Of a DNA stretch of 51,331 nucleotides, positions 2,092-43,157 are shown piece by piece (position 1 is the stretch's first letter; every line of letters begins with the position of its first letter). The notes beneath the pieces were generated by a model that saw only the letters and a program-made list of their open reading frames with translations, was not told the origin of the DNA and ran no database searches. This stretch comes from a virus. The DNA lies in the IMG/VR virus record IMGVR_UViG_3300045988_092522, positions 1-51,331 of that record. The stretch is one strand, 5' to 3'. The position numbers were made by a program, and so were the translations under genes.

Positions 2092-2952
2092 TCAAAATCT
2101 CCCTTCTTCTGCTCGGCTTACCTCCCACGGAAATTCCTGCCGAAAGCTGCCTTTCATCAGGTCGCGTAAGCTATCTTTCATGAACACAGGCGTTCCGTAC
2201 TTCTTGCAGACTTGTGCGATTTCTTCCACCCATTCCTTGTTGGGGACGGTTCTGTGCTTTGACTTGCCAGTTTCAGCACCGATAACCACCCATTCCCAGC
2301 GTCGAAACGTGCTGTAATCTCCGTTGCTTCCGCTTGAACTTATGAACCATTCCGGCTCGATAGGCTCAAGAATAGGTTCTACGGATACCCATTCAGCATT
2401 GGATTTATACGCGACAGCCATCATGGCATCATCAGTCGCAGATGCACCGAACATCATAACCGGCCTGCTTTTTTCGAGATACATTTCCTCCCACGAAGGC
2501 ATCAAGGATGAGATTTTCTCGTATCTGGAGGGAGCTTTCGTTAGAAACAGATACCGATGTTGTGGAGCAGCATCGCACGCTTTCAAGACTTCTGCAATCC
2601 ACTCGTCTGGCACCCAATGGCCGAACAGGTCTGCCATTGAGCACACGAAGACGTTGCGCGGCTTCTTCCAGTGCTGCGGCTCGTCCAGTTTGTAGCGGTA
2701 AAAGGTTGGCAGAAAACCGAACGGATACGGTTGAATTTTCCCGGCGCTGATTCCTGCATCTCGCATATATGCGTATGTATCGGTGCAACGCACAGGCTCA
2801 TGCAGCACGGGATAATCAGCAAATATCGGCATCTGGTTTGCGCCGAACCGCTCCGCAATCCTTCGAGCGTAGCAGTATTCGCAGCCGTGCAAACAGCCTG
2901 TTACCGGATTCCATGTGCTTTCGCACCAGTCTATCTTAGTCTTAGCGCCCAT
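2092..2952 (-). CDS. Phage Gp37/Gp68 family protein (DUF5131)
   Basis: The N-terminus TKIDWCESTWNPVTGCLHGCEYCYA is the family signature (TKIEW..WNPv.GC....C..CYA). Confidence 0.8.
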   Translation of the reverse strand: MGAKTKIDWCESTWNPVTGCLHGCEYCYARRIAERFGANQMPIFADYPVLHEPVRCTDTYAYMRDAGISAGKIQPYPFGFLPTFYRYKLDEPQHWKKPRNVFVCSMADLFGHWVPDEWIAEVLKACDAAPQHRYLFLTKAPSRYEKISSLMPSWEEMYLEKSRPVMMFGASATDDAMMAVAYKSNAEWVSVEPILEPIEPEWFISSSGSNGDYSTFRRWEWVVIGAETGKSKHRTVPNKEWVEEIAQVCKKYGTPVFMKDSLRDLMKGSFRQEFPWEVSRAEEGRF

Positions 2953-3088
2953 CTACACTATTATCCTCCTCAAACTCTCCGTCAAAGCTGCGCAGGCCGA
3001 AGCCCAGCAGGGCGAGGTTGTAACCGGCGACGCCGCCGATCAGGAAAATGTAGGCGATGAGCACCGCCTTGATGATCTGATTCAGCAT
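2942..3088 (-). CDS. Small membrane protein (48 aa, MLNQIIKAVLIAYIFLIGGVAGYNLALLGFGL...)
   Basis: Internal ATG of the otherwise Arg/Gly-rich track ORF 2942..3400. One clear hydrophobic helix. Fills the gap between flanking genes. Confidence 0.4.
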   Translation of the reverse strand: MLNQIIKAVLIAYIFLIGGVAGYNLALLGFGLRSFDGEFEEDNSVDGR

Positions 3089-3675
3089 ACTTCCTCCCAC
3101 ACGAAGCGGCCTTTGCCGGAATTGCGCCACTGGCCGAGGCCGCGCAGCGCGCCATAGTCCAGGCACTCTTTGACGGCCGCCTCCAGCTCGTCCGTCAGCA
3201 TCACAATCGTCATCGTCATCGTGCTCCCCGCCGGAACGGTCTCGCTGCTGGCCAACGCGGTGCGGCTGCCCGTCGGGCCGTCCGTTCGCAGCGAGCGCTG
3301 ACAGTTGCCCATCTCGCCGCACACCTCCACGGGGATTTTGCGCTCCCGGACAAAAATCAGACCGTCGACGAACTTTTTGTAGGCCTTGAGCTTGCTGCAC
3401 GCCGTACCCGGCACGCGACGAAGCATGCCGATGGAATCCTTGAACATGCCCCGAATCTGATAGTCCCAGAAAAACGGGTGGCCGTCCTCCAGCCTCGGGA
3501 AAACGGTGGTGCCGCTCTCCACCATCGCGTCCACGCCGTTTTCTTCGATCTCCTCCGCCAACTTCGCCGCATCGGGCGCGTTGCTGGCGATGTAGTCGCG
3601 GTAGATTTCAGGGTTCGCGGGCATCATGCCCAGGGCTTCTTCCGTCAGAGTGATCCTGATTCTCAGTTCCTTCAT
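3082..3675 (-). CDS. Hypothetical protein (197 aa) ending in a Gly-rich loop GLGQWRNSGKGRF
   Basis: Track ORF 3082..3711. I prefer the start MKELRIRI at 3675 because GAGGAGGAAAAAAAC precedes it. Confidence 0.7.
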   Translation of the reverse strand: MKELRIRITLTEEALGMMPANPEIYRDYIASNAPDAAKLAEEIEENGVDAMVESGTTVFPRLEDGHPFFWDYQIRGMFKDSIGMLRRVPGTACSKLKAYKKFVDGLIFVRERKIPVEVCGEMGNCQRSLRTDGPTGSRTALASSETVPAGSTMTMTIVMLTDELEAAVKECLDYGALRGLGQWRNSGKGRFVWEEVC

Positions 3676-4087
3676 GTTTTTTTCCTCCTCAATTGTTTGG
3701 CCCCGCGCCATTTCATATCGCAGCTATGCAGAGCTATTCCTTTCCATTGCAATTCGTATCAGTGCAGTGCAAATCCCTCGCAAGTCTGATCTTTTCACCT
3801 CGGCTCTCAGCTACTCCCATCCCTTCCGTTGCAATTCATTGCTTCTCAGTACATCTCATATCCTTTTCCACGCGCGTCTTTTCTCCTCCGTTTCTTTTCG
3901 ATTCATGTCGTATCCAATCTTATCCTTTTCAGTTCATGTCGTATCCAATCCGTTCCTTTTCGTTTCAATTCGATTCATCGCGTTGCACTGATGAGCTATT
4001 TCTTATCAACGCAGTTCATAGCAAGTCCCGTCGCATCTTCTCCATTTCTTTTCACCTCGGCTCAGGGCCGCTCTCATCCATTTCCTC
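3676..4087. repeat. Non-coding, AT-richer, strand-asymmetric region with phased degenerate repeats (candidate iteron array / ori, or a structured GGA-rich RNA)
   Basis: No credible ORF on either strand. 30-bp tandem copies at 3891-3920 and 3921-3950. A 17-bp exact repeat tcttttcacctcggctc at 3790 and 4047. ttgcaattc at 3747 and 3829. Confidence 0.7.
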
Positions 4088-4672
4088 TCATTCCCACACC
4101 CGGACGTATCCAGGCATGACCGTAAAATTGCTGAGCACCTCTTCCGGCAGGGCGTATCGGTCGGGATCGTAGTCATGCCCGGGGCGGTAGTTTTTCGGCA
4201 GCATGCCCACGCACTGCTCCTCGGTCAGGCCGTAGGCCTTGGCGATGCGCTCGACGATCTTGGGATGGGTGACGGTCTTGTCGTCCTGCTCCAGCCAGTC
4301 CAGCAGCAGCGGGGAGATTTCGAGCTTCCGCGCCATTTCCGCGACGGAGAGGCCATAGGCCTGCCGGCCTCGCATCAGGTAGTATCGCGGGCCAAGCGTG
4401 GGGACGTAGACCGCCGCCGGTGGAGCGTCGGAGACGCGCGTTTCACCTTTGAGCGCTTTTCTGCTTTGTTTCTTGGTTTGCTGCTCTTTGACTGCGCATC
4501 CGGCGCACATATGCGTATGCCCGTAACGGAGCGTTTCACCGTGGATTATTTTTTCAAATCCGCAGTCGCAGCGGCACATGTATCGGATTCTTCCGCTCGG
4601 GCTGGGTTCCGCTTCGGCGATCACCGTCCAGTGGTTGTAGCGCCTGCCGATCATGTCAATCTTTGCGCCCAT
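4088..4672 (-). CDS. Zn-ribbon plus helix-turn-helix DNA-binding protein (194 aa)
   Basis: N-terminal CRCDCG...CAGC cysteine cluster. C-terminal XRE-like segment YGLSVAEMARKLEISPLLLDWLE. Confidence 0.7.
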   Translation of the reverse strand: MGAKIDMIGRRYNHWTVIAEAEPSPSGRIRYMCRCDCGFEKIIHGETLRYGHTHMCAGCAVKEQQTKKQSRKALKGETRVSDAPPAAVYVPTLGPRYYLMRGRQAYGLSVAEMARKLEISPLLLDWLEQDDKTVTHPKIVERIAKAYGLTEEQCVGMLPKNYRPGHDYDPDRYALPEEVLSNFTVMPGYVRVWE

Positions 4673-5061
4673 TACATTCCCTCCATCATCGAGACAATCT
4701 CGATCTCCACTCGCGGGTTTTCCCGGTCGAGGCGCACGCGGCTTCCGTCGTGGGCGGCGACGATCTGACTGTTGTCGTCTACCAGCACCTCTGCCCGGAC
4801 GAGGAGGTCGTCCGTGGCCTCCAGCAGGTTGGTCAGGTCGACCCTGCGCCGTGTGGGCATGTAGTACACGCAGCGCACGTTCACCGGCAGGTCGATTCGC
4901 TGGCGGGCCTTTCCGGGTATCTGCCTCAGGCAGTCCGCCTCGTAGGCCTTGTAAGCCTCTGAGGGACTGATAAAGCGCCTTCCCGTTCGGGAGTTACAAC
5001 GTATCGACTGGCTGTTCTTCTTCGTTCTGGGGGCGCCCCAGAGCGTCAGGATGAGCTTCAT
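4672..5061 (-). CDS. rusA: RusA-family Holliday junction resolvase
   Basis: Starts MKLILTLWGAPRTKKNS. Has the DLTNLLEATDDLLV acidic catalytic region. About 129 aa. SD GAAGGAGG upstream. Confidence 0.85.
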   Translation of the reverse strand: MKLILTLWGAPRTKKNSQSIRCNSRTGRRFISPSEAYKAYEADCLRQIPGKARQRIDLPVNVRCVYYMPTRRRVDLTNLLEATDDLLVRAEVLVDDNSQIVAAHDGSRVRLDRENPRVEIEIVSMMEGM

Positions 5062-5227
5062 GCCGCTTCCTCCTTCGCATGATGGTGTTCAGGCCCTTCC
5101 ACGCGGCCTCCGGGTCGCTGTGGGTCTGGCCGAGGAGCGTCCTGCGCTGCTGGGCGGTCAGCTCACCGCGCAGGAGGGCGATGCTGTCGCGCACCTGGCG
5201 GCGCAGGATCATGTCTGCGCTTGTCAT
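4994..5227 (-). CDS. Hypothetical protein (77 aa)
   Basis: SD GAAGGAGG and an ATGA overlap with the organizer gene stop. Its 3' end overlaps rusA by 68 nt (4994-5061), so the true extent is uncertain. Confidence 0.45.
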   Translation of the reverse strand: MTSADMILRRQVRDSIALLRGELTAQQRRTLLGQTHSDPEAAWKGLNTIMRRRKRHEAHPDALGRPQNEEEQPVDTL

Positions 5228-10258: not shown

Positions 10259-10354
10259 CGAGTCTCACATCCTTTGTCTGTCATTGCTTGCCCTGCCATC
10301 GTCAGCGCCGGTGGGGCGGTTCCGGCGGACACCCTCGCGGGTGTTTCGGCTTGG

Positions 10355-27127: not shown

Positions 27128-27831
27128 CGCGGCGTGATCTCAACCTTGGTCACGCTGCCCGTCCACGTGATGATATTCGTCCCGGGCCGCAGCACCGGGA
27201 ACTCGTCCATCACAAAGCTGCTGTTGAGCGACGCGGTTTTGGCCAGATTAAACGTCTCCATCAGCTCGCAGTCGATGATCGCTCCGTCCGTCAGGCTCCG
27301 CGCCTCGACGGAATAGCCGTTGACCACCAGCGTGATGTCGCCGCTGCCCGTCAGCTTGATCTGCGGCTGAGAAAACACGGTGCCGGGATTGGTGATCGTC
27401 CCGCCGGAGGTGGTGATCTCCTGTGCGGCAGGCGCGGGGTAGACATAGCGGAAGGGCTCGCAGTCGAACACAACGGTAAACTCCTGCCCGCGAAGGCGGG
27501 AATTGCGATTGCTGACGCTGAACTCCTTGGTCACGGAGGCGTTGTAGGCGCGGGTCGGGTCGTCGCCGAAGCGCAGCAGACCCCTGCCGGACAGCCAGCC
27601 GTTGACCGCGTCCATGTTGCCGTCCACGGCGATCACCCGGACAGAGACGAGAACGCGGTCATACGCGCCCTCGTCCATGAAGAGCTTGCCATTGCGCCCC
27701 GGAACGTCGATCAGATCGCCCTTGCGGGCCGGATGCGGCCGCGTGGGCATGGACAGCATCTCCACGCCGTATTCCGTGTTTTTGTGGCCCGCATATTCCA
27801 GCCACGCGTTTGCGCTTCCGACTGCTTTCAT
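27112..27831 (-). CDS. Distal tail protein (Dit)
   Basis: Position between the tape measure and the tail-tip protein. Start MKAVGSANAWLEY forms an ATGA overlap with the tape-measure stop. Confidence 0.75.
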   Translation of the reverse strand: MKAVGSANAWLEYAGHKNTEYGVEMLSMPTRPHPARKGDLIDVPGRNGKLFMDEGAYDRVLVSVRVIAVDGNMDAVNGWLSGRGLLRFGDDPTRAYNASVTKEFSVSNRNSRLRGQEFTVVFDCEPFRYVYPAPAAQEITTSGGTITNPGTVFSQPQIKLTGSGDITLVVNGYSVEARSLTDGAIIDCELMETFNLAKTASLNSSFVMDEFPVLRPGTNIITWTGSVTKVEITPRWRYL

Positions 27832-30576
27832 CGCTGCCCATACCCCCTTGCGTCTCTCGCGCGCAGCCACGCGAGCTGCGACGCATTATTCTGCCCTTGG
27901 ATTTCCGCGACCTTTCGACCGTCGATGTTGACTGGCACCTTGTTCTGCTCGGCGGCGATGGAAATCTCCTGCCGCAGCTCCGGCATGTTGACGTTGGTCA
28001 TTCGCGTCAGGTCTGCCGAGGTAGTCAGGCCGCCCAGCATGGTGTTCGCCACGCGCACCGCGCGCGCCATCGACTCGTTCAGGCCGATTTCGAGGCCCTC
28101 GCCGGTGTAGCGGCCAAGGCGCTTCATGACCTTCGACGGCGACTGGATTTGCATCGTCTGCCGGTATCCGCTGGCAAAAGCACTACCGGCCATTTTACCC
28201 ATATCCCTTGCGATGCTCACCGCGCTCGAAAGCCCGGCCTTGAGGCCTGCCGCAGTATCCTGTCCAGCTTTTTTCGCTCCGTCCGCGTCATCCATGTTGT
28301 CAGTGGCTTCTTCGATAAGCGACTTCGCCGCTTCGTTGACTTCCGTGGATGCGCCGCTGTAAACATTGCTCATCAGCGCCGCCACAGCGTCGGACTTTTC
28401 CGTCACGTCGAAATCTGTTCCGACCAATATGCCCTCATCCAGCGCATTTGCCCAAACCTCCTGCGCCTTGCCGGATATAACGGACGTGTCTATGTCATCA
28501 AGGAGATTCGCGTAGGCCTCTGACAGCACAAGGCCGAGGCCTCGGAAGTCCATCATCTCGACGGAATACGCTTCACCGCCGAAAATGCTCGTCAACATTT
28601 CGGAAACGGCCTGTTTCTGCTCCGGCGTAACGGCTTCTAAGCCACCCTCGGAGATCGCGTCAAACATTTGCTTTACGATCTCCGCCGCGCGCGCTTTGAT
28701 AATCGTGTCATCATCAAACGCCGCCGCATTGCCCTCGGATTCTGCAATGCCCCGGATAATTGCCGCCCAAGCCTGCTCGTATGCTTCCTTTGCAGCATTT
28801 ACAGCGTCGCTTCGCGTTGTCTCCGCCTCCAGAACGCCGGCGTCGTATTGTTCCTTCGATATGTCGCGATTCGAAAACTGCTCGTTCAGCTCGGCGATTG
28901 TCTTGTCGTATTCATCCTGCGCCGCCTGCTCGTCGACCTTAAACTCGTTGAATTTCAGGCTGACCGCCATGCTGATAGTAGCGTCGTCGGCCTTGCCTCC
29001 GGCGGTCACAACCTTGTAGGCATTTTCCGCTGCGGACAGCGCCTCGCCCTTCATCGCGGCTATACGCTCTTCCAGACCGTTAATCTCCGTTTCGAGGTCT
29101 GCAATATCCTGATAAGCCGCCTGAACGGCCTTTGTGGATTGCCCGGCGAGTGCGTCAACGACCTCCAGCGAGTCGTTTTTGATCGTCTGCACGTCCTTCT
29201 TGGCCTGCTCGTACTGTGCGGTCAGCTCCGCGACTTTCGCTTCATAATCAGGTGCGGTGGGGTCGAGCTTTTTAAGGGCTGCGTTATAGCCCTCTTCTAT
29301 GTCGGTCATGCGGTCGGTCGCCCATGTTTCCACCTTGGCCTTCAGCCCGGAGACCGTCTCCTCGTCGTCCGTCAGCCCGTCCGTCAGCACGTCGTAGATC
29401 GTCTCGGCGATGTTCGGCGTTTCATCCGCCAGTCTGCCGTTCGCCTCATTGTATACGCCGATGATAGCGTCAACGTCATCATCGTCCAGCCCAGCCATTT
29501 CGGCGAAATGCCTCAGCGCCACATTGCTGCCGTTCGCCTGTATAAACCATTTCGCGATCGTTCCAGCGTCAACGCCCAGATTCAGCGCATTCAGCGCATC
29601 AACAATCGTTGCTCCGCCGCTGCTGATCTGGTCTGCAATGCCCTGTGCCTCAGATTCGGGAAGCCCAAATTCCATGAGTTTGCTCTTGATGGCGCTCGCA
29701 TCCTCGCCGAGCATGCTCATGATCTCGTTCTTCTGCTCGTCCGTCAGCAAATCCGTCTGTAGGGCTTCGCGGATCGTGTCGTAGGCCGTCGCAATTTTAG
29801 ATGTGGCCGCGCTCGTGTCCACATCCACGTCCATCTTAAAATCGAGGTTCTTCAGCGCGTTCGTATCAACGCCATCCGTGATAAATTCCTGATTCAGGTG
29901 CTTAATCGTATCGCGAACACCGTCAAACACGCTGACAAACATATGTAGCGCACCTTCCGCGAGCGATTTTGCCATGTTCCCGATGCCATTCAGCAGCGCC
30001 GGAATCAGCTCCGGTAGCATGTTAATTAGGTCATAAACCACCATAGACGCAGTATCAAACAGCGCCGTGGTGATCTGAGGGAGCATCGCTGACGCGCCCT
30101 TGATCGCACTGGGCAGCGTGGACATAATCGCGCTAACGCCCTGCGGGAGCCATCTGGACAGGCCGGAAATCGCGTCCTGAAGTCTGCCCGTCATCATGCC
30201 CAGCAGATCGGGAAGCATGTCCGTGGCCGTGTCCAAAAGGCCCTGATAGCCGCCCTCGTCAAATGCGGTCTGCAATTCGCCGACGATGTTGTTTACCATC
30301 GGGAGCATTTGGGAGGCGAGGTCTTCCGACATGTCCTCCGTGATGCTTCCAAGCAGTTGCATGGCGTTGTCCTTCAGCGTGGAAAGCTGGCCGTTCAGCG
30401 TTTTGGACTGCTTCTCCATCGACTGGAAGAATTTGCCGCCCTCGCTGGTGGCGTAGCGCATACTGTCGGTGATCTCGCTGACGGCCATCTTACCCTTGCT
30501 GATGCGGTCATACAGAGAGGCCATGCTCTCGCCGGTGCGCTCGGAGATCTCCTGCAGGGGATTAAATCCGCCGTTT
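27828..30576 (-). CDS. Tape measure protein, exon 2
   Basis: The frame stays open upstream of the track ATG: NGGFNPLQEISERTGESMASLYDRISKGKMAVSEI, which continues the tape-measure N-domain begun in 31559..32040. Confidence 0.8.
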
Positions 30577-31558
30577 CAAGTGTTATCGCGCGGGCTTTTT
30601 ATCCCACGCTTCTCGCGGTTTCCCGCGAGGTCAGCATATCTTTTCACCTTCAGCCCAACAAAAAAGCAACCTTTCGGCTGCTTCATTGGCTGGTCAGGTG
30701 TCCCGGGCTCGTGGGCGAATTATTGCTCTCATAGCGCTCATCGCCTATGCGTTACGGACGTGTCCGATTCACACGCCCTCGGGATTAACTTGCTTGATTA
30801 TGTATCGTCCTCTGTAGGTTTTTCCGCTCTTGACGACTCTGGATAACGCGGATTGCGTCACGCCGCATTCAGCCGCGAAGGACTGAATGCAGTCATAAAT
30901 CTTTTCCGTGTTTGTCTGTATGTCAATAACGGAAATCGACTTTTTTCTGGATTCTGCTATGCGTTTACGAACATCGTTTGAAACCGGGTGATTCATGAGC
31001 TTTTCAGAACGCTTGCGCCTTGTTTCCTCACTCTGCTTTGTTCCGAGTTTACAAGCCCGGCACCGTGCTTTGTAGGCATCATCCATTTGATTGCCCTTAT
31101 TCCACGGTTCATGCCTCTTTCTAAATTGCGTCGGCTTCATCTTTGCAAGTGTAGTTTCGTCAACGAATTTGCCCTTGCCGCCAAATTCATGACACGCTTG
31201 CGCTTGTCCGAGGCTTTTCAGCTTACACCCGTATTCCATCTCATACGCCAGCGCTGCCTCGTCGGTATCGAATTCTCGAACGATTCTATAAGCACATTCT
31301 TTCGTCTTGCGAATGCGCTTAAACTCGTCGTTTCTGTCCTTCATCGAAGTCGCGCGATTGCCAGAGCCTTTCCCGACATAGAAGATTTCTCCGGTTTCAA
31401 CGATATACCATTCGTAAACATAAAATGCTTTGGCGTTAATCATCTATTTTACACCTCCGCATTTATTATAGCATATATCCCTCCAATAATCAAGTTTAGC
31501 CTTCCCCGATACACCGGGATTTTCATCCGCGTATTTCTACGCGGCGTGACAAACGTTT
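30577..31558 (-). mobile_element. Group I intron (982 nt) carrying a GIY-YIG homing endonuclease ORF
   Basis: P1 hairpin UGAU|AA-ACGU-UUGUCA has a U-G wobble at the 5' splice site. The intron ends in G. P2-like CCGCGUA-GAAA-UACGCGG. The two exons sum to 3231 nt in frame. Confidence 0.75.
30769..31443 (-). CDS. GIY-YIG homing endonuclease (I-TevI-like, with NUMOD3-type repeats)
   Basis: FYVYEWYIVETGEIFYVGKGSGNR...EMEYG (GIY-YIG core). HEPWNKG and LGTKQSEETRRKRSE. Own SD GGAGGTG. Confidence 0.85.
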   Translation of the reverse strand: MINAKAFYVYEWYIVETGEIFYVGKGSGNRATSMKDRNDEFKRIRKTKECAYRIVREFDTDEAALAYEMEYGCKLKSLGQAQACHEFGGKGKFVDETTLAKMKPTQFRKRHEPWNKGNQMDDAYKARCRACKLGTKQSEETRRKRSEKLMNHPVSNDVRKRIAESRKKSISVIDIQTNTEKIYDCIQSFAAECGVTQSALSRVVKSGKTYRGRYIIKQVNPEGV

Positions 31559-32040
31559 ATCATCTGCTTGATGTCCTGCAGGTTGACCTTTCCGGCGCTG
31601 CTCATCTGGGCGTAGCCGGTGGCGATGGAAACCATCGCCTCCTTGTTGCCCTGAGCGATGTCGCCGAGCATGCTCATCTTTTCAATTGCGTCGTCGGCGG
31701 TAAAGCCGTACTGCATGAGCAGCTGGGTGACCTGGACGAGGTCGGTTGTTTCAAAGGGCGTTTCCGCGCCCATTGTCCGCAGGCGCTCGACCACGTCCGC
31801 GGCTTTTTCCGCCGAGCCGGTCATGACCTCAAAGGAGGTGCGGTACTGCTCGAGCGTGGCGTTGTAATTCACGCCCTTGGAAGCGACCTCTATCAGCTTG
31901 CCGACGGCCTGCGTGGTCATGTCGATGCCGGCCTTGATGTCGGCGAGACCGGCTTTCGTTTTGCCTTTTAGCCCTGATAGTACTTTTTCGAAATCGCTAG
32001 CGTCGCCATTAATGCGTATTTTTAGACCATTCTCAGCCAA
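31559..32040 (-). CDS. Tape measure protein, exon 1
   Basis: ...RLRTMGAETPFETTDLVQVTQLLMQYGF...GKVNLQDIKQMI(N) is a typical tape-measure N-terminal domain. The track ORF runs 7 codons into the intron before a stop. Confidence 0.8.
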
Positions 32041-41703: not shown

Positions 41704-43157
41704 TTTACCTCCAAAATTTCATCGTCCTCCGCGATCTGACGCGCCGAAACCCATCCGCGCCGGGTCAGGATCGGATGCTCGCCGCTCGCTCGGAGGATTC
41801 GACCGTCCTCCAGCTCGATTTCGAAAATCTCCTCCGCCCCCGTCTGCCGAACGTTAAAAAAGCGAGCCGTCACCGCTCGCTCGTTTTCCTCGTCGTAGCA
41901 GATCACCGCGCCGGTCTGACCGACCAGCTCGTCGATGCGCTTTTCGCCGTCCACGGTGCATACCAGCGTGTCTCCGGTCAGGCAGTGGTTGTCCTTGTCC
42001 GGATACGCGGGGAGGAAATTCCCGTTCTTGTCCTGCAAATATTCGTATTTCTGGAATTCCCGGGCGATGTTGGGCGTTCGCCGCGGGTCGACGACGATTG
42101 CGCCCAAGTCCTCCAGCCATCGCATGCCGTGCTCCACGCTGCCCGCGCCCTTGCGAACGCCAACGGCGGTCACGCCACGCCGCTTCAGCTCGGCGATCAT
42201 CCGCGGGTCGGCGCTGTCGCAGCGCACGATCTCCCGCCCTGCCAGCGCGGCGACCTTTTCCGCCAGCGTGTCGATGTTGGTGTGGGAGCCGTAGTACTCG
42301 GCGACGGCATACAGCCTGCGCGTCCTGCGGCTGTAGGCCCAGCGTGTGAAAGCGTCCGGATCGGTGGCAAAGCCGAAGTCGAGGCCGTTGTAAAAGGTCT
42401 CAAGGGAATCAATTTCCTTGGAGTCGATCTCCCGCAGCTCGAGATTATCGAACACATTGCCGCCGGTGCCCGTGACCTCGCCCAGGTACTCGTTGCGATA
42501 GGCGCGCTCGTTGGTGGCGCGGATGCTGTCTGCGAGGGCGATGAACGATTCGCCCAGCCAGTCCCGATGCTCGGAAATCACGTCCAGATAGGTACTGGAA
42601 TGGATAAATCGATCCGCCCGAGGCTTCAGCGCCTCCTCGTTGACCCAGTTCTGCGCCGTTTTGGGCGGGTTGTAGGTGAAAATCGTGACGGCCCGATCCA
42701 CGCCGCGAAGCACGGACTGCTGGATGGAATGCACGTCCTCCAGCGAGCGGAACTCCGTCAGCTCCTCAAACCACAGAAATTTGAAATAGCCGCGGGTCAG
42801 CGTGATGGACTTGGACTTCATGGGATCGTCGGCCCCGCGGAACATGATGCGCTGGCCCGTGTCCACGCGGGCGATCTCCAGCGGCGATTTACGGAACTTG
42901 AAGAGCGACTCCCAGCCGAGGCGGCCGATGGCCGTGGCGATAGCCGCGTATACGCTGTCGGCGAGGGTGTTGCCCACGCGGCGGTATACGATGGCGTTGG
43001 CGCTGGTGTCCTCCAGCAATCCCATGACGATCTGCATGGCGGCGAAGGACGACTTGGTTGAGCCTCGGCCGCCCAGAAGCCAGTACTCCGCATGGCCCAT
43101 GCGCCCCATGTCCTCGGAGACCTCGTTGAATTTGCTGCACGTCACCACGCGCGTCAT
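41700..43157 (-). CDS. terL: Large terminase N-extein (391 aa, PBSX/XtmB-like) fused to the N-intein (94 aa)
   Basis: Walker A LLGGRGSTKS. The body runs through ...LPAYPDKDNH and then switches to CLTGDTLVCTVDG...ASGEHPIL...EILEVK-stop. Confidence 0.85.
   Translation of the reverse strand: MTRVVTCSKFNEVSEDMGRMGHAEYWLLGGRGSTKSSFAAMQIVMGLLEDTSANAIVYRRVGNTLADSVYAAIATAIGRLGWESLFKFRKSPLEIARVDTGQRIMFRGADDPMKSKSITLTRGYFKFLWFEELTEFRSLEDVHSIQQSVLRGVDRAVTIFTYNPPKTAQNWVNEEALKPRADRFIHSSTYLDVISEHRDWLGESFIALADSIRATNERAYRNEYLGEVTGTGGNVFDNLELREIDSKEIDSLETFYNGLDFGFATDPDAFTRWAYSRRTRRLYAVAEYYGSHTNIDTLAEKVAALAGREIVRCDSADPRMIAELKRRGVTAVGVRKGAGSVEHGMRWLEDLGAIVVDPRRTPNIAREFQKYEYLQDKNGNFLPAYPDKDNHCLTGDTLVCTVDGEKRIDELVGQTGAVICYDEENERAVTARFFNVRQTGAEEIFEIELEDGRILRASGEHPILTRRGWVSARQIAEDDEILEVK
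41703..41984 (-). other. Split intein, N-terminal half (blocks A and B)
   Basis: Cys1-LTGDTLV (block A) and SGEHPIL (block B, TxxH-type); 94 aa and then a stop. Confidence 0.8.

What the first reader, a model, noticed from the sequence alone, without database searches (positions are those of the whole stretch)
30577..31558. Group I intron with a GIY-YIG homing endonuclease interrupting the tape-measure gene
- ORF 31537..32040 is a tape-measure N-terminus that ends ...VNLQDIKQMIN followed by VCHAA-stop.
- The frame of ORF 27828..30524 is open upstream of its ATG as NGGFNPLQEISERTGESMAS..., which is the expected continuation.
- Joining ...CAGAUGAU to AAACGGCGGAUUU... gives ...QMINGGFNPLQ..., and the exon lengths (482 + 2749 = 3231 nt) are in frame.
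- Intron hallmarks read directly:
  - The last exon base is U and pairs with G in a P1 hairpin (UGAU|AA / UUGUCA).
  - The intron ends in G.
  - The pentamer AAACG occurs both at the intron start and at the 3' exon start, giving P10 potential with GUUU.
  - There is a P2-like CCGCGUA-GAAA-UACGCGG hairpin, and a GCAGCC-GAAA-GGUUGC hairpin in the 3' portion.
- The GIY-YIG ORF (30769..31443) has its own SD. It leaves 115 + 192 nt of non-ORF intron, a plausible ribozyme core.
- Together with the terminase intein, two essential late genes of this phage carry self-splicing elements.
Basis: partly seen in the sequence, partly recalled or inferred. Interest (0 to 1): 0.7.

Follow-up and report, generated by a model that had tools for sequence, protein, structure and literature searches.

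The report
Group I intron in tape-measure gene
The phage's tail tape-measure gene is interrupted by a 982-base self-splicing group I intron that carries its own homing-endonuclease gene; this is a real but already well-known kind of selfish element in phages of Gram-positive bacteria.

Summary
The observation and the interpretation both hold. On the minus strand, a 982-nt insert (31558..30577) splits a tape-measure gene (32040..31559 and 30576..27828).

- **Junction.** Joining the exons gives one 1076-aa ORF. Pfam TMP_3 then matches end to end across the junction, and uninterrupted homologues read ...KQMINGGFNPLQ... straight through it.
- **Intron family.** The insert belongs to a large family of phage introns found in DNA polymerase, terminase, ribonucleotide reductase and tape-measure genes.
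- **Independent model.** I built a covariance model from 38 other members, leaving out this window. It hits 30783..30575 at 121 bits (E 6e-31).
- **Covariation.** It supports P3, P4, P6, P7 (with a bulged base), P7.1, P8, P9 and P9.1. The P3/P7 pseudoknot, the U·G at the 5' splice site and the terminal G are all present. The same model also hits two of the Twort orf142 introns, a reference group I system.
- **Rfam.** It finds nothing in the window, because the ORF sits in P5 and the filters are strict. It scores an ORF-less relative at 43 bits.
- **The ORF.** It is an I-TevI-like GIY-YIG endonuclease.

Group I introns in prophage tape-measure genes, one of them with a GIY-YIG gene, were described in 2008. 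This is a new member of a known kind. Splicing itself is not tested.

The parts
31559..32040 (-). Tape-measure exon 1 (TTG start at 32040, SD GAGGAGGG upstream). Its last base, U31559, is the 5' splice site.
   Evidence: Pfam TMP_3 and PHROG tape-measure hits. PHROG 9959 match ends at profile position 177.
30577..31558 (-). Group I intron, 982 nt, subgroup IA-like, with the endonuclease ORF in the P5 loop.
31547..31562 (-). P1. Exon UGAU plus intron AA pairs with the internal guide UUGUCA (31552..31547). U31559·G31550 is the wobble pair at the splice site.
   Evidence: Sequence. In relatives L243 and L244 at the same site the pairing is UGAU|AG / CUGUCA, a compensatory change.
31527..31544 (-). 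P2 hairpin CCGCGUA-GAAA-UACGCGG.
   Evidence: recovered in the minimum-energy fold. P2 hairpins with GNRA loops occupy the same place in relatives.
31514..31519 (-). P3 5' strand UCCCGG, pairing with 30706..30701.
   Evidence: P3 is 99% paired over 40 distinct family members, against 63% when partners are shuffled, with many pair types.
31504..31509 (-). P4 5' strand UCGGGG, pairing with 30784..30779. It is followed by J4/5 AA and P5 GGC(U).
   Evidence: P4 is 100% paired, with covariation at positions 5 and 6.
31465..31493 (-). Promoter-like site TTGATT-17-TATAAT (TG-extended -10) inside the intron, upstream of the endonuclease gene.
   Evidence: 10 of 12 matches. One site was found against 1.3 expected in shuffles, so it is suggestive only.
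30769..31443 (-). Homing-endonuclease gene, 224 aa. Architecture: GIY-YIG catalytic domain, NUMOD3-like repeats, C-terminal helix-turn-helix. SD GGAGGTG lies at 31457..31451.
30779..30790 (-). P5 3' strand (A)GUU, J5/4 AA and P4 3' strand UCCCGA. These lie inside the end of the endonuclease ORF (codons ...V N P E).
   Evidence: The C-termini of the endonuclease homologues conserve N-(P/T)-E.
30756..30777 (-). P6 hairpin GGCGUGU-GAAUCGG-ACACG(U)CC. The ORF stop codon UGA (30771..30769) lies in its loop.
   Evidence: (helix 1, all 5 pairs covary).
30746..30752 (-). P7 5' strand A(C)GCAUA with a bulged C. It pairs with 30638..30633.
   Evidence: helix 2: 100% paired, A-U/G-C and G-C/A-U swaps in 18 of 38 sequences. 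Aligned identically in Twort.
30714..30745 (-). P7.1 helix GGCGA/UCGCC enclosing a conserved 22-nt loop (UGAGCGCUAUGAGAGCAAUAAU). This extension lies between P7 and P3'.
   Evidence: helix 3: 99.5% paired, 4 of 5 pairs covary. The first BLAST hit fell on this block.
30701..30706 (-). P3 3' strand CCGGGA. It forms the P3/P7 pseudoknot.
30645..30700 (-). P8, CACC...GGUG, with a long extension. The tip is GCAGCC-GAAA-GGUUGC followed by a U-run, which looks like a terminator.
   Evidence: (helix 4).
30633..30644 (-). J8/7 AAAAGA and P7 3' strand UAUGCU.
30612..30629 (-). P9 hairpin CUCGCGG-GAAA-CCGCGAG.
   Evidence: (helices 5 and 6).
30577..30609 (-). P9.1 hairpin GCGUGGG-AUAAAAAG-CCCGCGC and the 3' tail GAUAACACUUG, ending in the terminal G at 30577.
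   Evidence: (helix 7).
27828..30576 (-). Tape-measure exon 2. Its first base, A30576, completes the Ile codon AU|A. It then reads NGGFNPLQEIS... to the stop at 27828.

Best explanation
The tape-measure gene is one gene interrupted by a mobile group I intron of the IA type.

**Splicing (inferred).**
- The tail-operon pre-mRNA folds into the group I core.
- The guide sequence UUGUCA pairs with the end of exon 1, placing a U·G wobble at the 5' splice site.
- A free guanosine bound in P7 attacks there.
- The first bases of exon 2 then take the place of the intron's first bases on the same guide sequence (P10).
- The terminal G (30577) enters the G site, and the exons are ligated. The result is CAGAUGAU|AAACGGCGG, encoding a 1076-aa tape-measure protein.

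**Mobility (inferred).**
- The intron's P5 loop holds a GIY-YIG/NUMOD3/helix-turn-helix endonuclease gene with its own ribosome-binding site and possibly its own promoter.
- By analogy with I-TevI, its product cuts intron-less tape-measure alleles near the conserved KQMI|NGGFNP site.
- Repair then copies the intron and endonuclease gene into them (homing).

**What is shown.** The interrupted gene, the exact junction, membership of an intron family whose secondary structure is supported by covariation, homology to experimentally proven group I introns, and the endonuclease signature.

**What is inferred.** Catalysis, splicing efficiency, endonuclease activity and its target.
For: **Junction.**
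- In-frame 1076-aa product.
- TMP_3 rises from 52 to 95.7 bits and becomes one full-length match.
- PHROG 9959 ends and restarts at profile position 177.
- 431 homologues were found, many uninterrupted. P0002 and P0004 read DIKQMINGGFNPLQEISERTGESM across the site.
- The DNA of an intron-less allele is collinear, AAGCAAATGATCAATGGTGGT.

**Intron family.**
- Related cores sit between split halves of a DNA polymerase (Alicyclobacillus phage MMB025) and in terminase, ribonucleotide-reductase and tape-measure genes.
- 106 isolated phage genomes carry relatives.

**Structure.**
- On 38 sequences without the window, 96.2% of cells are paired against 71.2% when shuffled.
- 30 of 36 pairs have double changes.
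- The covariation score is 0.676 against 0.185 (0 of 500 shuffles reach it). Slid controls give 30-42% paired.
- P3 is 99% paired and P4 100% paired, both with covariation.

**Membership and link to proven group I introns.**
- Model R1 hits 30783..30575 at 121.1 bits, E 6e-31.
- R1 hits two Twort orf142 introns at 47.3 and 39.5 bits, with P7, P9 and P9.1 in register in both and P8 in the stronger hit.
- Rfam Intron_gpI scores the three Twort introns at 64-101 bits and the ORF-less family member L079 at 43.1 bits, E 5.7e-10.

**Same site in other phages.**
- Endonuclease homologues at 54% and 63% identity lie in the same arrangement (TMP fragment, endonuclease, TMP remainder) in other contigs.
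- R1 hits there at 145 and 118 bits, and the guide sequence shows a compensatory change.

**Endonuclease.**
- Invariant residues are Y8, Y10, Y22-V-G-K-G26, R30 and E68.
- Profile against the PDB: a GIY-YIG protein at E 3.3e-4, the I-TevI DNA-binding domain at E 0.016, I-HmuI at E 0.009.
- Foldseek top hits are GIY-YIG enzymes, including the I-TevI catalytic domain (TM 0.65).

**Composition and folding.**
- GC drops to 0.40-0.50 in the insert against 0.56-0.61 in the flanks.
- The 3' domain folds at z = -5.96.
Against: - There is no RNA evidence of a spliced junction.
- Rfam finds no group I match in the window, either at gathering score or at E <= 10. Its match to the ORF-less relative is below the gathering score (43.1 against 50).
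- Pfam gives no significant GIY-YIG hit for the ORF, and the structural matches are modest (E about 4e-3).
- P5 pairing in the family is only partly supported.
- The promoter-like site is no more than chance expectation for the region.
- The P8 extension resembles an intrinsic terminator. If it were active, it would work against read-through into exon 2.
Confidence: 0.9

Rival explanations
1. The insert is an intron relic that no longer splices. The tape-measure gene is then a pseudogene in a defective prophage, or is rescued only at low level.
For: Splicing was not tested. Rfam finds nothing in the window. The long P8 extension with a U-run looks like a terminator.
Against: - Every core helix of the family model is formed in the window, at a full-length score of 121 bits.
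- The endonuclease ORF is intact, with all signature residues.
- A near-identical relative (L049) differs by substitutions that keep the pairing, for example C to U at the first P2 pair.
- The exon codons right after the 3' splice site show many synonymous differences among window, L243 and L244, while the protein sequence is kept. That implies they are translated.
Confidence: 0.07
2. A free-standing homing-endonuclease gene has split the tape-measure gene into two separately translated polypeptides that assemble without RNA splicing, as in the split genes of some T4-like phages.
For: Exon 1 ends in a stop five codons into the insert. There is an ATG at 30524 in the exon 2 frame.
Against: - The 307 nt flanking the ORF are a conserved, covarying ribozyme core shared with introns in unrelated genes.
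- The 17 codons between the 3' splice site and that ATG are conserved as protein and match uninterrupted homologues from the first residue.
- The break lies in the middle of the TMP_3 domain.
Confidence: 0.02
3. The insert is another kind of intervening element: a group II intron, an intein or a translational bypass.
For: None beyond the bare fact of an interruption.
Against: - The boundaries are not GUGYG...AY, and there is no reverse transcriptase.
- The insert has stops in the exon frame, so it cannot be an intein.
- 982 nt is far beyond any known bypass.
- The structure fits group I.
Confidence: 0.01

Closest known systems
Group I introns in the tape-measure genes of Bacillus cereus-group prophages (TMP-IVS1, -IVS2 and -IVS3; Tourasse & Kolstø 2008, PMC2504315)
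   Same: These are subgroup IA group I introns inserted in conserved parts of prophage tape-measure genes. One of them, TMP-IVS3a of B. cereus E33L, carries a GIY-YIG endonuclease gene. The terminase genes of the same prophages can also be interrupted.
   Different: The host lineage differs: here a high-GC gut-type phage whose relatives lie in Clostridia and Bacilli MAGs. I did not compare sequences or insertion sites with the Bacillus introns directly. Most of those introns lack an endonuclease gene.
Staphylococcus phage Twort orf142 group I introns (AF132670). From memory, one of these is the ribozyme crystallised as PDB 1Y0Q and classed IA2.
   Same: The P7 strands with a bulged base, J8/7, P9 with a GAAA loop, P9.1 and the tail ...GAUAACA..UUG align in register. 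Model R1 scores them at 47.3 and 39.5 bits.
   Different: The region between P7 and P3' differs. Twort has its own P7.1/P7.2, whereas this family has one helix enclosing a conserved loop or a nested hairpin. Rfam detects Twort easily (64-101 bits) but not this window. The two orf142 introns that R1 hits are compact, with no room for an endonuclease ORF.
Phage T4 td intron with I-TevI
   Same: Both are phage group I introns with a GIY-YIG endonuclease gene that has its own translation signals inside a peripheral loop. The endonuclease has an N-terminal catalytic domain and a C-terminal NUMOD3/helix-turn-helix DNA-binding region. The I-TevI biology is from established knowledge.
   Different: Here the ORF is in P5 rather than P6, and it runs into P5', P4' and P6. 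Sequence similarity to I-TevI is marginal (E 0.016 for the DNA-binding part; TM 0.65 for the catalytic domain). The target gene is a structural gene rather than a nucleotide-metabolism gene.
Alicyclobacillus phage MMB025 DNA-polymerase intron (PV686781) and the unannotated relatives in Staphylococcus, Clostridioides, Streptococcus and Bacillus phages
   Same: They share the same ribozyme family: 92% identity over the P7/P7.1 block, with compensatory changes in P2, P3, P4, P7.1, P8, P9 and P9.1.
   Different: The host genes differ and so do the endonucleases (LAGLIDADG in MMB025). The public records do not annotate these sequences as introns.

Membership tests
Group I intron | P1 helix formed by an internal guide sequence, with a U·G wobble at the 5' splice site. 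| tested here: met
   UGAU|AA pairs with UUGUCA, with U31559·G31550. Same-site relatives have UGAU|AG / CUGUCA, a compensatory change. ORF-less L079 has GGU|UAU / AUAGCC, and Rfam aligns that P1.
Group I intron | The intron ends in G (omega G), and the 3' exon can pair with the guide sequence (P10). | tested here: met
   G30577 is the last base. The family tail is GAUAACA(N2-6)G. The first bases of the 3' exon, AA (or AG in L243 and L244), covary with the guide UU (or CU).
Group I intron | Conserved core with P4-P6 and P3-P8 domains and the P3/P7 pseudoknot, supported by covariation. | tested here: met
   P3, P4, P6, P7, P8, P9 and P9.1 are 91-100% paired with many double changes, and the controls are far lower. 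The window fits the model full-length.
Group I intron | Guanosine-binding P7 with a bulged nucleotide and an invariant G-C pair. | tested here: met
   P7 is A(C)GCAUA / UAUGCU. The bulged position is present in all 38 sequences, and the adjacent G-C pair is invariant (columns 48/183). That this pair binds guanosine is inferred from established group I structure.
Group I intron | Match to the curated Rfam model RF00028 at its gathering score. | tested here: not met
   No hit in the window at gathering score or at E <= 10. The ORF-less relative L079 scores 43.1 bits (gathering score 50), E 5.7e-10, and only when a 301-nt stretch is searched. The Twort controls score 64-101 bits. The window's 675-nt ORF lies inside P5, which the model cannot span.
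Group I intron | GTP-dependent self-splicing that yields ligated exons. | not testable with these tools
   This needs RT-PCR or an in vitro splicing assay.
Subgroup IA of group I introns | Extra helices (P7.1/P7.2 or P7.1/P7.1a) between P7 and the 3' strand of P3. | tested here: met
   The helix GGCGA/UCGCC lies immediately after P7. It is 99.5% paired and 4 of 5 pairs covary. Many members have a nested hairpin in its loop. I did not settle assignment to IA1 or IA2.
GIY-YIG homing endonuclease (I-TevI-like) | GIY and YIG motifs about 10 residues apart, followed by the catalytic Arg and Glu. | tested here: met
   Y8-V-Y10, Y22-V-G-K-G26, R30 and E68 are invariant in 28 homologues.
GIY-YIG homing endonuclease (I-TevI-like) | Significant match to a curated GIY-YIG profile or structure. 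| tested here: inconclusive
   Pfam gives only LEM-3_GIY-YIG at E 0.098. The family profile against the PDB hits a GIY-YIG protein (9u75) at E 3.3e-4. Foldseek gives 9u75 at E 3.6e-3, the I-TevI catalytic domain at TM 0.65 and UvrC GIY-YIG at TM 0.53. PHROG 314 'homing endonuclease' scores 8.9e-8.
GIY-YIG homing endonuclease (I-TevI-like) | Separate C-terminal DNA-binding region (NUMOD3 repeats and a helix-turn-helix). | tested here: met
   Homologues carry Pfam NUMOD3 (PF07460). The profile matches the I-TevI DNA-binding domain 1i3j (E 0.016) and the I-HmuI C-terminal region (E 0.009).
GIY-YIG homing endonuclease (I-TevI-like) | Site-specific cleavage of the intron-less allele, and homing. 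| not testable with these tools
   Indirect evidence only. The same intron and endonuclease occupy the same site in diverged tape-measure genes, and intron-less alleles exist.
Phage tape-measure protein (Pfam TMP_3) | Full-length TMP_3 domain above the gathering score. | tested here: met
   The joined product scores 95.7 bits (cut-off 41) over profile 2-191 of 192, spanning the junction.

The most novel reading that the evidence does not exclude
The intron may be more than a passive passenger. It could be a small autonomous transcription unit that couples endonuclease expression to splicing.

- An internal sigma-70-like promoter (31493..31465) and ribosome-binding site could drive the endonuclease gene.
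- The gene's last codons form P5', P4' and P6 of the ribozyme, so translating ribosomes would unfold the core.
- A terminator-like extension of P8 (30684..30663), shared with relative L244, could end endonuclease transcripts before exon 2.

Endonuclease translation and tape-measure splicing would then be mutually exclusive. That would time homing and tail assembly differently during infection.
Probability: 0.2. Interest if true: 0.45.

Novelty: new member of a known kind. Interest (0 to 1): 0.25.

Why it matters
**For annotation.** Gene callers report three ORFs here: a 167-aa 'tape measure', a hypothetical protein and an 898-aa protein with no hit above Pfam's cut-offs. In fact there is one 1076-aa tape-measure protein plus a homing endonuclease. 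Tail length inferred from the fragments would be wrong.

**For detection.**
- This intron family is widespread. It is in more than 100 isolated phage genomes of Staphylococcus, Bacillus, Clostridioides, Streptococcus and others, and in many metagenomic viral contigs.
- None of the five family-bearing loci I scanned gave an Rfam group I hit under the filters used for long stretches. None of the feature names shown for the listed records mentions an intron.
- A dedicated covariance model recovers it cleanly.

**Biologically.** It is one more case of selfish introns targeting the most conserved stretch of an essential late gene. It is not a new mechanism.

Tried and rejected
- **Rfam on the window.** Gathering thresholds on the whole window, and E <= 10 on 30400-31700, gave no group I hit. 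At first this looked like evidence against the intron. It was later explained by the ORF in P5 and by the filters.
- **blastn against phage genomes.** The whole insert matched only a 55-nt block in two records. That block became the lead to the family.
- **14-mer pattern.** ATGAGAGCAATAAT in viral contigs gave mostly chance matches. Only 7 of about 120 loci were real members, L001 and L002 among them. The pattern GATAAAAAGC-N5-8-GATAACA was far more specific.
- **First hand-drawn pairings.**
  - The local hairpin CCCGG-UGUA-UCGGG, which I read as P4/P5, was dropped because relatives do not conserve it. Its two arms are really the P3 and P4 5' strands.
  - A P4 3' strand at GUCCG was dropped in favour of UCCCGA inside the ORF end, which covaries in all members.
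  - P7 partners for GCUGAC sought in the 5' region, or in CACGAG, were dropped in favour of A(C)GCAUA/UAUGCU.
- **Pfam on the ORF.** Nothing significant. A family alignment, a PDB profile search and a structure prediction were needed.
- **Host identification.** One scan of reference genomes found only distant relatives, in Bacilli and Clostridia MAGs. The exact host is not identified.
- **Other element types.** Group II intron, intein and translational bypass were considered and rejected on boundaries, frame and size.
Full report
**What is in the sequence.**
- All features lie on the minus strand.
- The tape-measure N-terminal ORF runs 32040..31537 and ends ...DIKQMIN-VCHAA-stop.
- The large ORF 30524..27828 is open upstream in the same frame only as far as 30575 (NGGFNPLQEISERTGES...).
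- Directly upstream of that is an in-frame stop, TGA at 30578-30576, which straddles the proposed 3' splice site.
- Removing 31558..30577 (982 nt) joins 482 + 2749 nt into one 1076-aa reading frame.
- In between lies a 224-aa ORF (31443..30769) preceded by GGAGGTG. It leaves 115 nt 5' of the ORF and 192 nt 3' of it.

**Is it one gene?**
- Pfam TMP_3 matches the N-fragment alone at 52 bits over profile positions 2-116 of 192.
- The joined product matches as a single stretch over positions 2-191 at 95.7 bits.
- PHROG 9959 ends at profile position 177 in the N-fragment and restarts at 177 at the first residue of the downstream frame.
- A search with the joined N-terminal 307 aa found 431 relatives. 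Many are uninterrupted and cover 94-100% of the query.
- In the alignment, P0002 and P0004 read DIKQMINGGFNPLQEISERTGESM across the site. The surrounding columns are the most conserved of the protein.
- The DNA of one intron-less allele (L241) is collinear with the joined exons, apart from synonymous changes.
- The interruption and its exact position are therefore established.

**Is the insert a group I intron? First results.**
- Rfam gave no group I hit in the window, either at gathering score or at E <= 10 on 1.3 kb.
- blastn of the insert against phage genomes matched only a 55-nt block just 3' of the ORF.
- In Alicyclobacillus phage MMB025 that block lies between an 'endonuclease' gene and the second half of a split DNA polymerase gene.
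- Comparing the two inserts by eye showed the same order of helices, with compensatory changes.

**Collecting the family.**
- Two pattern scans of viral contigs recovered a large family. 83 pattern matches carried the P7 motif within 1.2 kb, and they yielded 50 distinct 3' domains.
- Members lie in ribonucleotide-reductase-like, terminase and tape-measure genes, among others. One terminase gene carries three of them.
- Some members have no ORF at all, such as the ~240-nt intron in the tape-measure-like gene of L079.

**Structure of the 3' domain.**
- I aligned 38 3' domains, deliberately leaving out the window and its near-identical relative L049 (alignment A2).
- I imposed a hand-derived structure of P6, P7, P7.1, P8, P9 and P9.1.
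- 96.2% of cells form standard pairs, against 71.2% after shuffling. 30 of 36 pairs show changes on both sides.
- The covariation score is 0.676 against 0.185, and none of 500 shuffles reaches it. Sliding the partners by 1-3 columns drops pairing to 30-42%.
- P7 has the bulged nucleotide and invariant G-C pair typical of the guanosine-binding helix. Its outer pair switches between A-U (20 sequences) and G-C (18) without a single mismatch.

**Structure of the 5' half.**
- The 6-bp P3 is 99% paired over 40 distinct members with very different sequences. Shuffled partners give 63%, with a maximum of 72.5%.
- J3/4 is always 4 nt.
- P4 (UCGGKR/YMCCGA) is always paired and covaries at two positions.
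- J4/5 and J5/4 are AA/AA.
- P5 is short and only partly supported.
- P3 and P7 interlock as the group I pseudoknot.
- The helix between P7 and the 3' strand of P3 (P7.1) is the mark of subgroup IA.

**Does the window belong to this family?**
- Covariance model R1, built from A2, finds exactly one hit in the 51-kb window: 30783..30575 on the minus strand, full length, 121.1 bits, E 6e-31.
- The window's 5' part supplies matching P3 (UCCCGG/CCGGGA) and P4 (UCGGGG/UCCCGA) strands at the family's fixed spacing.
- It also has a P2 hairpin with a GAAA loop, and a P1 in which U31559 pairs with G31550.

**Link to experimentally established group I introns.**
- R1 hits two of the three Twort orf142 introns at 47.3 and 39.5 bits. 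P7, J8/7, P9, P9.1 and the 3' tail are in register in both, and P8 in the stronger hit.
- Rfam RF00028 detects all three Twort introns at 64-101 bits.
- When only 301 nt are searched, RF00028 scores the ORF-less family member L079 at 43.1 bits, E 5.7e-10. It aligns P1 to P9 as I had assigned them.
- In a 35-kb search the same intron was missed.
- The Rfam negative for the window therefore reflects filters, plus a 675-nt ORF inside P5. It does not reflect absence of the fold.

**Same site, other phages.**
- Endonuclease homologues at 54% and 63% identity (P0150, P0134) lie in other contigs in the same arrangement: TMP_3 fragment, endonuclease, remainder of the tape-measure gene.
- R1 hits there at 144.7 and 118.1 bits. 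It finds nothing in the intron-less allele L241.
- Their junctions are ...AUGAU|AGAC...CUGUCA... and ...UUG|AGAAGC. The window's are ...AUGAU|AAAC...UUGUCA... and ...UUG|AAACGG.
- The guide sequence thus changes from U to C exactly where both the second intron base and the second base of exon 2 change from A to G.
- The codons just after the 3' splice site differ at many synonymous positions among the three while the protein is conserved, so they are translated.

**The ORF.**
- Pfam finds nothing significant. PHROG 314 'homing endonuclease' scores 8.9e-8.
- 115 homologues were found, and the more distant ones carry NUMOD3.
- In 28 aligned homologues Y8, Y10, Y22-V-G-K-G26, R30 and E68 are invariant. 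This is the GIY-YIG signature.
- The family profile hits a GIY-YIG PDB protein (E 3.3e-4), the I-TevI DNA-binding domain (E 0.016) and the I-HmuI C-terminal region (E 0.009).
- An AlphaFold model has mean pLDDT 82. Its best Foldseek matches are GIY-YIG enzymes, including the I-TevI catalytic domain at TM 0.65.
- The homologues' C-termini conserve N-(P/T)-E because those codons are the P4 3' strand (AAU-MCC-GAG). The ORF's last ~8 codons encode P5', J5/4, P4' and half of P6, and the stop lies in L6.

**Other features.**
- GC falls to 0.40-0.50 across the insert, against 0.56-0.61 in the flanks.
- A TTGATT-17-TATAAT site with an extended -10 lies 31493..31465, upstream of the endonuclease gene. 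One such site is about what shuffles give.
- The distal P8 hairpin with its U-run scores as terminator-like. A similar hairpin is present in L244.
- The 3' domain folds at -87.2 kcal/mol, z = -5.96, and the fold recovers P7.1, P8, P9 and P9.1.

**What is known already.**
- Tourasse & Kolstø (2008, PMC2504315) described IA1 and IA2 group I introns at three sites in the tape-measure genes of Bacillus cereus-group prophages. One of them carries a GIY-YIG gene. They also described introns in terminase and tail-tube genes.
- Spliced introns in capsid and tail genes are documented for Cluster J mycobacteriophages (PMC3706429).
- Relatives of the present ribozyme are present in 106 isolated phage genomes, though none of the feature names shown for the listed records mentions an intron.

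**Verdict.**
- The finding is correct and well supported at the level of sequence, structure and comparative evidence.
- It is a new member of a known kind.
- Splicing and endonuclease activity remain inferred.

Noticed in passing
window 43157..40256 (- strand): The terminase large subunit seems to be encoded as a split-intein 'fractured' gene, not with a contiguous intein. ORF 43157..41700 ends ...DKDNH|CLTGDTLVCTVDG...EILEVK-stop, which is an N-intein of about 82 aa. Next comes a 415-aa D12 adenine-methyltransferase gene (41703..40456). Then ORF 40522..40256 holds ...VYNMEVERFHNFAVNGGLIVHN|CIDSSRYALEPE..., a C-intein plus the terminase C-extein.
   Followed up: partly
window 10287..10351 (- strand): Rfam type II hammerhead ribozyme match at 40.6 bits (gathering score 37), E 6.3e-5.
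   Followed up: no
window 31465..31493 (- strand): A near-consensus sigma-70-like promoter (TTGATT, 17 nt, TG-TATAAT) lies inside the intron, just upstream of the endonuclease ribosome-binding site. It is not statistically enriched.
   Followed up: partly
window 30663..30684 (- strand); also L244 about 4760-4800: The distal part of P8 is a G+C-rich hairpin flanked by an A-rich stretch and a U-run, resembling an intrinsic (bidirectional) terminator. It sits downstream of the endonuclease gene but upstream of exon 2. A similar hairpin is in relative L244 and is absent from L243.
   Followed up: partly
window 30769..30790 (- strand) and alignment A3: The endonuclease homologues end in a conserved N-(P/T)-E-(G/S/V)... 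because their last codons are the ribozyme's P4 3' strand and P6. Protein and RNA constraints overlap here.
   Followed up: yes
L120 about 3070-5170; L002 about 2100-3180 and about 3600-4715: One viral contig carries three introns of this family in a single terminase gene. The human-faecal phage MT835539 carries two, and its ORFs are broken by TAG codons, which suggests stop-codon recoding.
   Followed up: no
window 40785..40904: A 9-nt tandem repeat (about 13 copies, CTTGCAGCC) lies inside the methyltransferase gene and encodes LQG/LQS repeats.
   Followed up: no
window 37332..38846 (- strand): The minor capsid protein 2 homologue carries a C-terminal Ntox50 toxin domain (Pfam 36.5 bits).
   Followed up: no
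L079 9693..9916: Rfam RF00028 finds this ORF-less family member only when a 301-nt stretch is searched (43.1 bits, below the gathering score of 50). It misses it in a 35-kb search. Routine Rfam scans may therefore overlook this widespread intron family.
   Followed up: yes
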